Origin: a virus
Lineage: Duplodnaviria; Heunggongvirae; Uroviricota; Caudoviricetes
Direction: 5' to 3' (one strand)
DNA length: 64,000 nt
Virus record (IMG/VR): IMGVR_UViG_2703718774_000012
The stretch's first letter is position 1. Every line of letters starts with the position of its first letter. The position numbers and the translations under genes were made by a program. Positions 1 through 10,243 of the stretch are shown here, piece by piece. The notes under the pieces are model-generated. The model did not search any database and was not told the origin of the DNA. It saw only the letters and a list, made by a program, of their open reading frames with translations.

Positions 1-885
1 TAAACCTGATTTTGCCCGGACATTGCGACCCGGATGACTTATCGTTCCCGCCGCTGACTTTGACATGTATTTAACCTTCAAATCCTCAATGACAATCATT
101 GCGTGGTTTTTGCTGATGATCGTTGTGACTTTATGAAGGTAGTCTCTGCGGATATTTGCGATACGAAAATGCAGTCGCTGTATTTTGCGTTTCTGCTTCT
201 GCCAGTTGTTGCTGAATTTGACCTTGCGGCTTAACTGTCGCTGAAGTCTCGCCAGCTTCTTCTGGTTTTTCTGAAAACTGTTTACAGGCTCAAAGACTGT
301 GCCATCTGACAGCGTGGCGAGTTTAGCCACGCCAGCATCCAGCCCGATCATTGATGCTGAAGGGTGAACCGGAGTGGATATTTCACTTTCTGTCTGAATA
401 CTGATGTACCACTTACCGCAGGACTGGCTGACAGTGACATTTTTCACAACTCCCGTGACCTGACGGCTATTCCGGTAGCGCATCCAGCCCAGTTTCGGCA
501 GAAAAATACGGCTGTTTTCCTGATCGAGCTTAACGCCCTGCGGGTAGCGAAATGCATCATTCTGTCCCCGCTTTTTGAATCGGGGAAAAGCAGCCCGATT
601 CTGGAAGAAGTTTTTGTAAGCCCGCTCAAGGTCTTTCAGTGACTGTTGCAATGGCTGTGAGGGAGAATCTATAAGCCATTCGGTTTCAGTGTCTTTTTTC
701 CACTCAACCAACCAGGAAGCCATTTTCGTGTAAGGGATGTATTTTTTACCGGCCTCATGATTCTCATTCTGAAGCGCCAGAGCACGGTTGAAAACGAAAC
801 GACAAGCTCCGGCAAAGCGCCTCATTTGACACTCCTGTTGACCATCTGGTTTTAACCGGAATTTGAATGACACCTGTTGTTTCAT
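1..885 (-). CDS. tnpB: IS200/IS605-family TnpB (OrfB)-like protein, N-terminal 295 codons; gene continues beyond window start
   Basis: Manual minus-strand translation is open from ATG 885 down to position 1 (MKQQVSFKFRLKPDGQQECQMRRFAGACRFVFNRALAL...IEDLKVKYMSKSAAG), with a stop at 895-897 just upstream. Not in the ORF track because it has no in-window stop. Confidence 0.75.
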   Translation of the reverse strand, partial: MKQQVSFKFRLKPDGQQECQMRRFAGACRFVFNRALALQNENHEAGKKYIPYTKMASWLVEWKKDTETEWLIDSPSQPLQQSLKDLERAYKNFFQNRAAFPRFKKRGQNDAFRYPQGVKLDQENSRIFLPKLGWMRYRNSRQVTGVVKNVTVSQSCGKWYISIQTESEISTPVHPSASMIGLDAGVAKLATLSDGTVFEPVNSFQKNQKKLARLQRQLSRKVKFSNNWQKQKRKIQRLHFRIANIRRDYLHKVTTIISKNHAMIVIEDLKVKYMSKSAAGTISHPGRNVRAKSGL

Positions 886-984
886 GTCACTATTTTAAGC
901 AAAAATAGCCGGGAGGAAAACTGTGCCTTATATCCCCACTATGAGGAGCGTAGGGGGCGGCACATTGGATAAGGCGTAACAGGG

Positions 985-3972
985 ATGAGCTTAAGCGATC
1001 AGGTGGTAATGGCCACCAGCATAGAAACGCTGATCGAGCTGCTAAAGAACCTGCCCGATTATGGGCGGGTTTCGTATGTGGTGACAGCGAAGGGAGACGA
1101 GGTAAAAACAGCGTTTGATATCGTCGATGCCTCAGCTCTTTTGGTATCCAATACTCTGGATGGGAAAATTAATCCAGACTATCCCCAGGAACTTCAGCCG
1201 CGCGACCGGACCCGCGCATCCAGCCTTCTTCAGGTCAACCAGATATCCAAGGATTTGCGTCCTGCCCAGCTTACCGATTCCGGTTTATCCAGCCATGGCG
1301 CGCCAATAATTGGTGAGGACAATGCCGTTGAGTCAGGTAATGGGCGGACCATGGGGATCATTAAAGCCTATCAGGACGGTAATGCGGATCGGTATCGGGA
1401 GTACCTGATTGAACATGCGACCGAATTCGGCATACGGCCTGAAAAGGTTGAATCAATGACGGCTCCGGTACTGGTGCGCCGCCGGTTAACGACGGTTGAC
1501 CGTGTTCAGTTTGCCAAGGACTCAAATATTTCTGATCTCCAGGAAATGGCAGCCAGTGAAAAGGCTTTTGTTGATGCCGACAGCATAACACCGGCGATGA
1601 TGGCGCTTTTTAACCCGTCAGAAAGCGGAGATCTGCTTAGCCGCAGTAATGACGCGTTTATTCGCGGATTTATGACGCAAGTTGGTGCCACACAGGCGGC
1701 TGGCCTTGTAACTGAAGATGGGCGACCAACACGGCAACTTGTTGACCGTATACAAAACGCGATCTTTGCCAAGGCATATAAGGATGCGCGCCTGGTAAGG
1801 ATGGTTGCAGAAGAACCTGATCCGGATATGCGTAATGTTCTGACGGCGCTTAATGCGGCAGCCAATGATTTTGTCCAGATGCAGGCTTTATCAGGAGAAG
1901 CGCACAAGCAGGCTGTGACAACTATTGTTGATGGCATTGAGACAGCGGATAGCCTCGATAAAAAGGCGCTGGCGGCATTGAAAGATGCGGTAGACCTGGT
2001 AAGGCAATCGAAGGAGTCAGGCCAGCATATTACCGATGTTATTGCTCAGGGGGATATGTTCAGCGAAACGGCCCCGGAGGTGAAAGCACTCGCGTTGTTC
2101 ATCGTCGCGAATAACCGTAGCGCGAAGCGTATGGCCACCGCCTTTAAGTTGATGGCGCAACGTATCAATGATGAGTTACAGCACCAGGGCCAGGCGCTCG
2201 GGGATATGTTTGGCGGCGGCGATGTGTCGTTACAGGATATCCTTCGCCAAGTATCTCAGGAACTGGAAAACGAAGGTATGCAAGGGATATCTGGCGGTCT
2301 TTTCGAGTCAGCTTCTGGCGGTAGTTACAACGGTGTTGCTCCATATACCAGCTTGCTATTACATCGGGCATCCGGCATCAAAGACATTATTCATCTGATC
2401 AGGCTGCTTTCCCGTACAGATCCCCAGGATGAACAGCTTGTTCAAGTGCTTGCGCATTTTGTTCGAATGCCTGTTGCCGACGTGAAAAAATGGTGCCGAT
2501 TATTCGGTATCAGCAATTCGTTACTTCGCGGCTTGTTAAATCACGCATCTTCCCTTGGGCGCGATGGCTTTGACGAGATAGCGCAGGCGATAAAAAACGG
2601 AGATATGCCACCAGCTATTGACTGGTTTTCCATTCGCCCAACCAGGGTGAAAGCATTCCTTAGCGCGGCGCATTCGGCATCACCATTGGCAGAAATGGTT
2701 CAGAGGTTGTCGCTCATATTCACAGACCATACCGCGTTGGGTGATCTGACTCTGGACGAGATGAAAGAAGCCTCCATTCAGTGGGCCGATCAACAAAATG
2801 AGGTTAACTCAGACTTCTTGCCAGCATTCAGGAAGGCCGTTAGTAAAGCGGATGATGCCCGTGGAATTCTGAAGGCATTTAAGGCATTGCAAAGTCGTGT
2901 TAATAAACATGTCGGTGATATCTATGGGGTAACGGCGGAAGGCCGGGATATCCTTAAAGAGCACGGCATAACGCCAGAGTTTATTGATGAGATCAGGACT
3001 GATATGCAGCGTGAGGTCGTATCGTCCCTGCAAATCGTAGCCAGAGCGTTGGCGGATGCTAATCCGAAGAGTGCGGCCATTGTTAACCGGGTTATTGGTG
3101 ATATTGAAGCATCGGAGGGCATGGGGGCGCTGAAACTCTTCCTTTCGCGAGCGTTTAATCCTAACGGCAATATTCTCCCTGGCATTATTGGTGAGGCTAA
3201 AAAGTATGTCAGTGAAGAAGAACTTGAGCAGCTTGACCAACTACTTAAGCGATTCTCATATAACCCGCAGACACGCTGGCAAATGAATCAGCGAAGTATG
3301 GGTTCGGTCCACGAGAAAGTGTTATCTGCCATGAACAGTGCGATCGCAAACTCATCCGTATCTGAAGAAAAAGCTCTTGAGTGGGCCGACTCTTTTATCA
3401 CAGAAGAAGTGGAAGAAGCCCGCGCTGGACAGAATGGTGGGATAGACCTGCGCAAGGAACTTGCTGATATTTATCGCCTGACCGGCGGGAAAATATCGAC
3501 CTTATCAAAGGTAGTTCACCACCAGGGAAGGGCATATGCAAATCTAAATGGTGTTGTTGCTGTCAATTTGAACGATGAAAATGCAAGTGCACTGTGGCAC
3601 GAGCTGGGTCATCATCTTGAGTACAGTAACCCTGGTTTGTTAGAGAAAGCCCGGTCATTCCTGAAGGCCAATGTTGAAGGGGATAAGCCATCTTTCGTCA
3701 ATATCGGTGGGCGTGGCAAGCCTGAATGGTGCTTCAGATCTCGATTGAGTAATATTTATATGGCGAAGGTATACCCGCCAGCCTCAGTAAGTAACACCGG
3801 GAAAATTCGGCATAAATCACCGACTATTTCCAAAACGTCAGCAACGGAAGTATTCTCTATGGCTCTTCAGTTGTATCATGACAAAGAGGCCGCTGCCGCA
3901 TCACTGATGAATGGTGACGGATTGCTGGAACTGTTATTAGGTGTGGCAAAGGAGCTAAATAATGCAGATTAA
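985..3972 (+). CDS. large hypothetical protein (995 aa) with HExxH-type motif near C-terminus; possibly a Ddr-like antirestriction-operon protein
   Basis: Long ORF in track; HELGHH at nt 3598-3615; Ddr-like name is inference from position next to the ssb/lyz block only. Confidence 0.6.
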   Translation: MSLSDQVVMATSIETLIELLKNLPDYGRVSYVVTAKGDEVKTAFDIVDASALLVSNTLDGKINPDYPQELQPRDRTRASSLLQVNQISKDLRPAQLTDSGLSSHGAPIIGEDNAVESGNGRTMGIIKAYQDGNADRYREYLIEHATEFGIRPEKVESMTAPVLVRRRLTTVDRVQFAKDSNISDLQEMAASEKAFVDADSITPAMMALFNPSESGDLLSRSNDAFIRGFMTQVGATQAAGLVTEDGRPTRQLVDRIQNAIFAKAYKDARLVRMVAEEPDPDMRNVLTALNAAANDFVQMQALSGEAHKQAVTTIVDGIETADSLDKKALAALKDAVDLVRQSKESGQHITDVIAQGDMFSETAPEVKALALFIVANNRSAKRMATAFKLMAQRINDELQHQGQALGDMFGGGDVSLQDILRQVSQELENEGMQGISGGLFESASGGSYNGVAPYTSLLLHRASGIKDIIHLIRLLSRTDPQDEQLVQVLAHFVRMPVADVKKWCRLFGISNSLLRGLLNHASSLGRDGFDEIAQAIKNGDMPPAIDWFSIRPTRVKAFLSAAHSASPLAEMVQRLSLIFTDHTALGDLTLDEMKEASIQWADQQNEVNSDFLPAFRKAVSKADDARGILKAFKALQSRVNKHVGDIYGVTAEGRDILKEHGITPEFIDEIRTDMQREVVSSLQIVARALADANPKSAAIVNRVIGDIEASEGMGALKLFLSRAFNPNGNILPGIIGEAKKYVSEEELEQLDQLLKRFSYNPQTRWQMNQRSMGSVHEKVLSAMNSAIANSSVSEEKALEWADSFITEEVEEARAGQNGGIDLRKELADIYRLTGGKISTLSKVVHHQGRAYANLNGVVAVNLNDENASALWHELGHHLEYSNPGLLEKARSFLKANVEGDKPSFVNIGGRGKPEWCFRSRLSNIYMAKVYPPASVSNTGKIRHKSPTISKTSATEVFSMALQLYHDKEAAAASLMNGDGLLELLLGVAKELNNAD

Positions 3973-4282
3973 AATCGCAGCGCCATTAGGCGGAGATGCC
4001 ATTATCGAATTTGATGATAATGAAGAAGTTTCCGGGCGTTTGAGCATTATCTCCGGTGACATTACCGAGGACATGATCGCTGAAGCCATAGCTGGGGCAA
4101 ATCCCAATAGCTATATGGGATTCGTTAACACCCTTGATGCTCCCGCAAGTGATGTTCTCCGAACGCTGCATCTTTACGCTGGCTGGTTTGTTGATTGGCC
4201 AGCAGTAGATGGTGGCGATGAGGATGATGATGACGATGAAGAGGTTTTTAGTGATGAAACAGTAAACCAACTCTTGTATTGA
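3962..4282 (+). CDS. small acidic protein (106 aa) overlapping end of upstream gene
   Basis: ORF track; start overlaps 3' end of 985..3972; acidic tail DGGDEDDDDDEE. Confidence 0.55.
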   Translation: MQIKIAAPLGGDAIIEFDDNEEVSGRLSIISGDITEDMIAEAIAGANPNSYMGFVNTLDAPASDVLRTLHLYAGWFVDWPAVDGGDEDDDDDEEVFSDETVNQLLY

Positions 4283-7508: not shown

Positions 7509-7512
7509 ATGG

Positions 7513-10243
<2,731 letters not shown>

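What the first reader, a model, noticed from the sequence alone, without database searches (positions are those of the whole stretch)
1..984. TnpB-like ORF running off the window edge, next to the large HExxH-containing protein
Manual translation shows 295 codons of an uninterrupted minus-strand ORF, starting at ATG 885, with a TnpB-like N-terminus. It is missing from the ORF track only because it lacks an in-window stop. TnpB proteins are RNA-guided nucleases of IS200/IS605 elements, so the element's left end and the guide RNA at the 3' end would lie nearby or just outside the window. This may be an IS insertion near the antirestriction operon.
Basis: partly seen in the sequence, partly recalled or inferred. 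Interest (0 to 1): 0.4.

Follow-up and report, generated by a model that had tools for sequence, protein, structure and literature searches.

The report
IS609-like tnpB element in P1 plasmid
The open reading frame at the window edge is the first 295 codons of a known mobile-element gene (an IS609-type TnpB RNA-guided nuclease) sitting between two anti-restriction genes of a P1-like phage-plasmid; it is real and intact, but it is ordinary and already described.

Summary
Observation confirmed; interpretation supported. Window 885..1 (minus strand) is an open 295-codon frame. It is the N-terminal three quarters of a 402-aa TnpB. The window is 100% identical over 1-1100 to complete E. coli P1-like plasmids, which supply the missing 366 bp.

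Alignment with empty sites in P1 and JL22 defines a 1335-bp insert (window -366..968). It lies exactly between ddrA and ddrB of the Dar anti-restriction operon, 3' of TTAT, with no target duplication.

The element has no tnpA. Relatives in other Enterobacterales carry a divergent 138-aa Y1 transposase.

The TnpB has D183/E267/D363 and both CxxC pairs. dN/dS is about 0.2 among P1-borne copies.

A 148-nt structured RNA scaffold (omega-RNA) ends at the right end. It is supported by covariation: 95.9% paired versus 35-47% in slid controls. It lies outside the window.

The predicted guide matches the empty P1 site (TTAT plus 24/24 nt). The nuclease should therefore cut P1 relatives that lack the insert. 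This is inferred, not shown.

The left-end hairpin is non-canonical and the right end reads TCAC instead of TCAA. This lineage is found only on P1-like plasmids. About 17% of them are occupied.

IS609 insertions in P1-like plasmids are already published. Low novelty.

The parts
1..885 (-). tnpB, codons 1-295 of 402 (HTH/WED-REC part and RuvC motifs I and II: D183, E267). The last 107 codons (RuvC III D363, zinc ribbon) lie beyond window position 1.
   Evidence: Translation is open. Pfam and NCBIfam hits. The full gene is L001 7677-8885, which is 100% identical over the shared part. It aligns with ISDra2 TnpB 8EXA over residues 5-376, E 6e-51.
886..968 (-). Left end (LE) of the element, 83 nt: CCAATGTGCCGC-CCCC(T)AC-GCTCCTCATA-GTGGGG-ATATAAGGCACAGTTTTCC..., followed by the tnpB leader. 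The hairpin is non-canonical for the family, whose consensus is CCCCGTCC-TTCA-GGGCGGGG starting 16 nt from the tip.
   Evidence: The boundary comes from the empty-site alignment with P1 and JL22. Comparison with canonical LEs. DNA fold z-score is only -1.5.
969..972 (-). TTAT on the tnpB strand: the insertion target / predicted TAM directly 5' of the LE. On the + strand ATAA supplied the original ddrA stop codon.
   Evidence: About ten full-length relatives are flanked by TTAT and three by TTAC. PMC6906374 gives 'left, TTAT; right, TCAA' for IS609.
973..3972 (+). Context, not part of the element: the original ddrA-ddrB spacer with the ddrB ribosome-binding site (973-984), and ddrB (985-3972, 995 aa, ddrB-ParB domain, HELGH at residue 872). 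ddrB is now separated from ddrA by the 1335-bp insert.

Best explanation
A 1335-bp, tnpA-less IS609-type element (IS200/IS605 family) is inserted in a P1-like phage-plasmid between ddrA and ddrB, 3' of TTAT. It runs antisense to the Dar operon. It encodes a full-length, apparently catalytically competent TnpB. The last 148 nt of the element fold into a conserved omega-RNA scaffold that ends at the right end. The 16-24 nt that follow (GCTGCCTCTTTAATGTTGGC..., the antisense of the ddrA 3' end) would serve as the guide. By the established TnpB mechanism, the TnpB-omega-RNA complex cuts DNA that carries TTAT followed by the guide sequence. That sequence is exactly the uninterrupted ddrA|ddrB junction of P1 relatives without the insert. 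The occupied site is protected because TCAC replaces TTAT there. A cut in an empty-site P1 genome sharing the cell would either be repaired from the occupied copy, which copies the element in (homing), or would destroy the rival. Transposition would need a Y1 TnpA supplied in trans. This lineage shows no sign of having moved. Shown here: identity, boundaries, target motif, intact motifs, purifying selection, RNA covariation, and the guide/target match. Inferred: expression, cleavage, homing or exclusion, and loss of mobility.
For: Family and completeness. D183, E267, D363, C334/C337 and C353/C356 are present. Boundaries: the empty sites in P1 and JL22 differ from the occupied site by exactly the 1335-bp insert, with no duplication, and the ddrA protein is unchanged (GCA TAA becomes GCG TGA). 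Right end: in about 50 homologues the sequence is conserved up to ...GGAGGATGTCAA and the flanks are unrelated after that. tnpA: relatives carry a divergent 138-aa Y1_Tnp (E 1e-41) and this element has none. Omega-RNA: RNAalifold gives 42 pairs, 16 with compensatory changes. 95.9% of cells are paired versus 35-47% with slid partners, there are 110 double-change cells versus 6-30, and 0/500 shuffles reach the observed values. Many G-U pairs are only possible on the tnpB-sense strand. There is a sub-threshold Rfam RAGATH-18 hit inside the scaffold, and RAGATH-18-derived RNAs are guide RNAs of IS607 TnpBs (PMC11061315). Target: P1 reads TTAT plus 24/24 matching nt, and JL22 23/24. Selection: all 10 complete P1-borne copies have intact 402-codon ORFs, dN/dS is 0.09-0.28 and pS reaches 0.10. 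Confinement: the P1-type LE occurs in 64/5426 E. coli genomes, all 66 places are on plasmids and none on chromosomes. 75 of 432 P1-type ddrB junctions in PLSDB are occupied.
Against: There is no expression or cleavage data. The promoter scan found nothing above chance. The differences among P1-borne copies could partly come from gene conversion with the ~95%-identical chromosomal insQ copies present in 5015/5426 E. coli genomes, which would mimic purifying selection. The RE hairpin (helix 10) is also what a TnpA would bind as DNA, so that helix does not discriminate RNA from DNA function. The non-canonical LE and the TCAC end are only circumstantial evidence of immobility. The 3' end of the window's own copy is inferred from identical plasmids and is not seen in the window.
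Confidence: 0.85

Rival explanations
1. A decaying relic: a dead IS fragment that is passively carried by the P1 backbone, with a tnpB that no longer does anything.
For: There is no tnpA. The LE hairpin is non-canonical and the RE terminal base is changed from TCAA to TCAC. The lineage is found only at one site on P1-like plasmids. E. coli chromosomal relatives often have a truncated tnpA of 95 aa (L006, L027).
Against: All 10 complete P1-borne copies keep an intact 402-codon ORF despite pS up to 0.10. dN/dS is about 0.2. All catalytic and zinc-binding residues are present. The omega-RNA scaffold and guide flank are conserved in every copy.
Confidence: 0.1
2. An exapted, nuclease-independent TnpB derivative (TldR-like RNA-guided repressor) that regulates neighbouring Dar genes.
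For: It has a fixed position inside an operon, antisense to it, with a guide complementary to the ddrA 3' end.
Against: TldRs are defined by loss of RuvC catalytic residues and C-terminal truncation (own knowledge of Wiegand et al. 2024). Here D183, E267, D363 and the complete zinc ribbon are intact and the protein is full length. The resident site lacks the TTAT motif next to the guide match, so the resident copy should not be bound as a target.
Confidence: 0.03

Closest known systems
IS609 / E. coli insQ (ydcM) TnpB, IS200/IS605 family
   Same: The tnpB-plus-RE part (element positions 100-1334) is about 95% identical at nucleotide level to copies in 5015/5426 complete E. coli genomes, including the K-12 insQ next to ydcO. 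The target is TTAT and the family RE ends in TCAA, as published for IS609 in P1-like plasmids pJIE250-3 and pSvP1 (PMC6906374). PGAP annotates the P1-borne copy as 'RNA-guided endonuclease InsQ/TnpB family protein'.
   Different: The first ~99 nt (LE and leader) do not match the chromosomal copies, which have a divergent tnpA or its remnant there. The LE hairpin is non-canonical and the RE ends in TCAC.
ISDra2 TnpB-omega-RNA (PDB 8EXA, 8H1J, 8BF8)
   Same: The protein aligns end to end (residues 5-376, E 6e-51) with the D-E-D and zinc-ribbon positions conserved. The guide-RNA scaffold overlaps the 3' end of the gene and ends at the RE. A closing helix pairs the scaffold's 5' segment with the nucleotides just before the guide, resembling in topology the ISDra2 pseudoknot (own knowledge).
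   Different: Sequence identity is low. The target motif is TTAT, not TTGAT. The scaffold is shorter (148 nt conserved core). ISDra2 has tnpA in the same element.
IS1341-type / solo-tnpB elements and TnpB homing (Meers et al. 2023, own knowledge)
   Same: It is a tnpB-only element bounded by IS200/IS605-type ends. The guide is the flank 3' of the RE, so the nuclease recognises the empty donor-joint sequence TTAT plus flank.
   Different: Here the empty site exists as a population of sibling phage-plasmids (about 83% of P1-type plasmids in PLSDB) and not as an excision product in the same cell. The outcome would therefore be between-replicon homing or exclusion. This is not tested.
RAGATH-18-derived guide RNAs of IS607 TnpB (Rfam RF03064; PMC11061315)
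   Same: The outer stem and the conserved CCUGUGGAG...GUUGAAGCAGGAA motif of the scaffold match the RAGATH-18 consensus.
   Different: The score is 28.1 bits against a gathering score of 44.9, with a much shorter insert (17 versus 44 nt). The associated protein scores as IS200/IS605-type (249 bits) and not IS607-type (139 bits).

Membership tests
TnpB (RNA-guided endonuclease of IS200/IS605) | Domain architecture: N-terminal HTH/WED-REC, OrfB_IS605 RuvC core, C-terminal zinc-ribbon (TNB) | tested here: met
   Pfam HTH_OrfB_IS605, OrfB_IS605 and Cas12f1-like_TNB all score above their cut-offs on the 402-aa protein. NCBIfam guided_TnpB scores 263.5 bits against a cut-off of 100 on the window part alone.
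TnpB (RNA-guided endonuclease of IS200/IS605) | RuvC catalytic triad D-E-D and CxxC...CxxC zinc site | tested here: met
   D183, E267, D363, C334/C337 and C353/C356 align with the ISDra2 TnpB positions. Only D183 and E267 lie inside the window.
TnpB (RNA-guided endonuclease of IS200/IS605) | Structured guide-RNA scaffold overlapping the gene's 3' end and ending at the RE | tested here: met
   49 non-redundant 3' ends were compared. 42 pairs are predicted and 16 are compensatory. 95.9% of cells are paired versus 35-47% in slid controls. 0/500 shuffles reach the observed values. Transcription itself was not tested.
TnpB (RNA-guided endonuclease of IS200/IS605) | RNA-guided, TAM-dependent DNA cleavage | not testable with these tools
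   This needs biochemistry or a plasmid-interference assay.
IS200/IS605 insertion sequence (IS609) | Insertion 3' of a specific tetranucleotide, with no terminal inverted repeats and no target duplication | tested here: met
   Occupied versus empty alignment: TTAT | element | flank, with no duplicated bases. The same TTAT/TTAC flank is seen in relatives.
IS200/IS605 insertion sequence (IS609) | Y1 (HUH) TnpA transposase in the element | tested here: not met
   Only 83 nt separate the LE tip from the tnpB ATG. Relatives carry a divergent 138-aa Y1_Tnp (E 1e-41). The element is therefore a non-autonomous derivative.
IS200/IS605 insertion sequence (IS609) | Similar subterminal hairpins at LE and RE, and RE ending in TCAA | tested here: inconclusive
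   The RE hairpin is present 10 nt from the tip (DNA fold z -4.7), but the tip reads TCAC, not TCAA. The LE has a different 6-bp stem with a 10-nt loop, placed 12 instead of 16 nt from the tip.
TldR (nuclease-dead TnpB-like repressors) | Loss of RuvC catalytic residues and/or C-terminal truncation | tested here: not met
   The triad and zinc ribbon are intact and the protein is full length at 402 aa.
Rfam RAGATH-18 (RF03064) | Score at or above the family gathering threshold | tested here: not met
   28.1 bits against 44.9, E 0.015. It is a resemblance only.

The most novel reading that the evidence does not exclude
The P1-borne copy is no longer a transposon. Instead it is a fixed RNA-guided nuclease cassette maintained by selection in a subset of P1-like phage-plasmids. 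Its ends are decaying (altered LE hairpin, TCAA changed to TCAC, no tnpA, never seen off the P1 backbone), while tnpB and the omega-RNA stay under purifying selection. Its hard-wired guide targets the intact ddrA|ddrB junction carried by the ~83% of P1-like plasmids that lack it. It would then act as a weapon or homing drive in competition between incompatible sibling phage-plasmids.
Probability: 0.2. Interest if true: 0.55.

Novelty: already known. Interest (0 to 1): 0.22.

Why it matters
For annotating this window, the result settles that positions 1-968 are the left three quarters of a known IS609-type tnpB element. It interrupts the P1 Dar anti-restriction operon between ddrA and ddrB without changing either protein. 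More broadly, the locus is a clean natural example of the TnpB logic. The guide is fixed by the insertion site, and the matching TAM-plus-target exists intact in most sibling P1-like plasmids. That makes between-replicon homing or exclusion directly testable with standard P1 genetics. It adds no new kind of system.

Tried and rejected
Rfam at permissive thresholds gave no omega-RNA family, only sub-threshold RAGATH-18 (28 bits) and HgcC (19 bits) hits. I treated these as resemblance, not membership.

The sigma-70 promoter and intrinsic terminator scan over the element gave counts within chance expectation. That includes a promoter-like site facing ddrB (window 867-896) and a terminator-like hairpin 17-37 nt past the RE. 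I drew no conclusion from either.

Searching the window for the TAM-plus-guide target with up to 3 mismatches found nothing. This is expected, because the ddrA flank lies outside the window.

Literature searches for ddrA/ddrB together with TnpB/IS609/insQ, and for phage-plasmid together with TnpB, returned nothing on this insertion's function. Two P1-like plasmid papers (PMC9603915, PMC5241659) do not mention it.

The TldR-like reading was rejected because the catalytic residues are intact.

I first read the LE hairpin as destroyed. Closer inspection, including variants L092, L093 and L095 with a perfect CCCCAC/GTGGGG stem, shows that a different hairpin is present. The claim is therefore limited to 'non-canonical'.

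No structure prediction or large protein-database searches were run, because family assignment was already unambiguous.

Full report
**Observation.** On the minus strand, window 885..1 reads as 295 sense codons from an ATG with no stop. The ORF lister omits it only because it runs off the window. It is not a chance ORF. Pfam finds HTH_OrfB_IS605 (residues 1-48) and OrfB_IS605 (162-277). NCBIfam's guided_TnpB model scores 263.5 bits against a cut-off of 100. The neighbour at 985..3972 (+) is a 995-aa protein with a ddrB-ParB domain and a single HELGH motif at residue 872.

**Extending the sequence.** Window 1-1100 is 100% identical to three complete E. coli plasmids of 90-97 kb. Their annotation shows a P1-type gene order: tail fibre, holin, a 639-aa protein, a 121-aa protein, tnpB on the opposite strand, the 995-aa protein, ssb, lysozyme, icd and an antirepressor. 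Phage records name the flanking genes darA, ddrA and ddrB. In these plasmids the tnpB gene is 1209 nt and encodes 402 aa. The window therefore lacks its last 107 codons.

The full protein adds the Cas12f1-like TNB zinc-ribbon domain. It aligns over residues 5-376 with ISDra2 TnpB (8EXA/8H1J, E 6e-51). D183 (GLDAGV), E267 (VIEDL), D363 (NADVN) and the two CxxC pairs (334/337 and 353/356) are all present.

**Boundaries.** P1, P7, JL22 and other relatives match only the two flanks. Aligning P1 and JL22 with the occupied plasmid gives an exact 1335-bp insert at L001 7634-8968, which is window -366 to 968.

- On the tnpB strand the junctions read ...ACGCCTTAT | CCAATGTGCC...(element)...GGAGGATGTCAC | GCTGCCTCTTTAATG...
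- There is no target duplication and there are no inverted terminal repeats.
- In the empty site ddrA ends GCA TAA, 12 nt before the ddrB ATG. In the occupied site it ends GCG TGA, with the stop supplied by the element, so DdrA is unchanged.

In window coordinates the LE is 886-968. TTAT is at 972-969 on the minus strand. Positions 973-984 are the old spacer with the ddrB ribosome-binding site.

**Family anatomy from relatives.** Eighty loci from one-genome-per-species contigs and 49 from viral contigs were fetched. In about 50 of them the sequence is conserved up to ...hairpin-AGGATGTCAA, and the flanks are unrelated beyond that. This defines the RE and shows the family is mobile.

Most Enterobacterales copies have a divergent gene about 30 nt upstream of tnpB. 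It encodes a 138-aa Y1_Tnp transposase (E 1e-41). Beyond it lies a canonical LE: TTAT|C(A/C)NGTGCGCCGTAAAA-CCCCGTCC-TTCA-GGGCGGGG-ATATAAGGCGCGG. The base sequence just outside the LE is TTAT in about ten loci and TTAC in three. This agrees with the 'left, TTAT; right, TCAA' given for IS609 in P1-like plasmids by Venturini et al. 2019 (PMC6906374).

The element in the window has no tnpA. A few other loci (L008, L015, L029, L040, L096-L101) are also solo-tnpB forms.

**Peculiarities of the P1-borne lineage.**

- Its RE ends in TCAC instead of TCAA.
- Its LE keeps the tip and the 3' arm, but the 5' arm and loop differ. The hairpin is CCCC(T)AC-GCTCCTCATA-GTGGGG, a 6-bp stem with a 10-nt loop placed 12 instead of 16 nt from the tip.
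- All ten complete P1-context copies in the viral collection share the site, these ends, the same flank and an intact 402-codon ORF.
- Pairwise dN/dS among them is 0.09-0.28, with pS up to 0.10. A caveat is that gene conversion from chromosomal copies could contribute to this pattern.
- The P1-type LE is found in 64 of 5426 complete E. coli genomes, on plasmids only (66 places, none chromosomal).
- By contrast, the tnpB-plus-RE part is about 95% identical to copies in 5015 genomes, including K-12 insQ.
- In PLSDB, 75 of 432 P1-type ddrB junctions are occupied and about 356 are empty.

Together this indicates one ancestral insertion that has since travelled with, or between, P1 backbones. There is no evidence of further transposition.

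**Guide RNA.** Rfam has no matching family at threshold. The best hits, inside the last 130 nt of the element, are RAGATH-18 (28.1 bits against a gathering score of 44.9) and HgcC. RAGATH-18-derived RNAs are the guide RNAs of IS607 TnpBs (PMC11061315).

I aligned the last 260 nt of 49 non-redundant elements. Conservation rises sharply over the last ~150 nt. In TnpBs only 62-64% identical at protein level, an 89-nt segment remains 91-94% identical at nucleotide level.

RNAalifold predicts 42 pairs, 16 of them with compensatory double changes. For that structure:

- 95.9% of cells are paired, versus 35-47% when partners are slid by 1-3 columns.
- There are 110 double-change cells, versus 6-30 in the slid controls.
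- None of 500 shuffles reaches the observed values.

Frequent G-U pairs fit only the tnpB-sense strand, which argues for RNA and not single-stranded DNA. The core runs from AACAUUUUAGCGG (codon 369) to the RE tip: 148 nt, L001 7781-7634, window -219 to -366. A closing helix (ACAUUUU with AGGAUGU) sits directly before the guide.

**Mechanism.** By the established TnpB mechanism (own knowledge: Karvelis 2021; Altae-Tran 2021; Meers 2023), the guide is the sequence just 3' of the RE and the TAM equals the transposon's target motif. Here the guide would be GCTGCCTCTTTAATGTTGGC.... The empty P1 site reads TTAT followed by 24/24 matching nucleotides, and JL22 has 23/24. The resident site has TCAC in place of TTAT, so it should be immune. 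The target does not occur in the window.

The nuclease should therefore cut P1-like genomes that lack the insert. The result would be homing by recombinational repair or loss of the rival. Expression, cleavage and outcome are inferences.

**Comparison and novelty.** This is an IS609-type tnpB element. PGAP annotates it as such, and its presence in P1-like plasmids is published. It fails the IS200/IS605 'autonomous element' criterion because it has no TnpA, and its ends are partly non-canonical. It is best filed as a non-autonomous, probably immobilised derivative of a known IS. It is not a TldR, because the catalytic residues are intact.

The one less ordinary reading is that it persists as a fixed homing or exclusion cassette in competition between sibling phage-plasmids. 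The evidence allows this but does not demonstrate it. I give it about 0.2.

**Verdict.** The feature is ordinary and already known, so interest is low.

Noticed in passing
window 7511-7538 (+): GGTTAT|TTAAACGGGTTGATTGAATTAT is the unoccupied target of a second solo-tnpB IS609-like lineage, which has a canonical LE hairpin and an RE ending ...GGGTGTCAA. That lineage sits at exactly this position in several P1-like viral contigs (L096-L098, L100, L114, L118, L128, L130, L134). One viral genome (UViG 2636416110) has both sites occupied (L129 and L130).
   Followed up: partly
L072 2979-3238, L076 2904-3163, L085 2889-3148, L132 1428-1687, L077 2918-3177: These loci keep only the last ~150-170 nt of the element (omega-RNA scaffold plus RE) without a tnpB gene upstream. 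They are stand-alone scaffold remnants or tnpB-less derivatives.
   Followed up: no
L033, L035, L036, L037, L039 (about 4093-4181 in each): TnpB homologues only 62-64% identical in protein retain an 89-nt stretch of the 3' scaffold region at 91-94% nucleotide identity. The RNA module is much more conserved than the protein, or it has been exchanged between lineages.
   Followed up: no
L006 and L027 (E. coli chromosomes), upstream of 3001: The divergent tnpA next to E. coli chromosomal insQ-type copies is truncated (95 aa instead of 138). An in-trans source of TnpA in E. coli itself is therefore uncertain.
   Followed up: no
window 2550 onward versus L001: The window is identical to plasmid NZ_CP058684.1 up to position 2549. 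It then shows scattered differences within ddrB and diverges strongly after about 4040. The window's backbone is therefore a mosaic relative to the best-matching plasmid.
   Followed up: no
phage If1 (U02303.1 6413-7055), Aeromonas phage AP1 (MT713136.1 238144-238434), Morganella phage IME1369_01 (L005 2501-3735): Fragments or whole copies of the same tnpB at about 95% nucleotide identity occur in unrelated phage records. These include a 643-bp piece in filamentous phage If1 and a 291-bp piece in a 254-kb Aeromonas phage.
   Followed up: no
window 867-896 (+): A promoter-like site (ATGACA-18-TATTTT, 9/12) lies at the tnpB 5' end and faces ddrB. The count of such sites is within chance expectation, so it is only a lead for how ddrB might be expressed downstream of the insert.
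   Followed up: no
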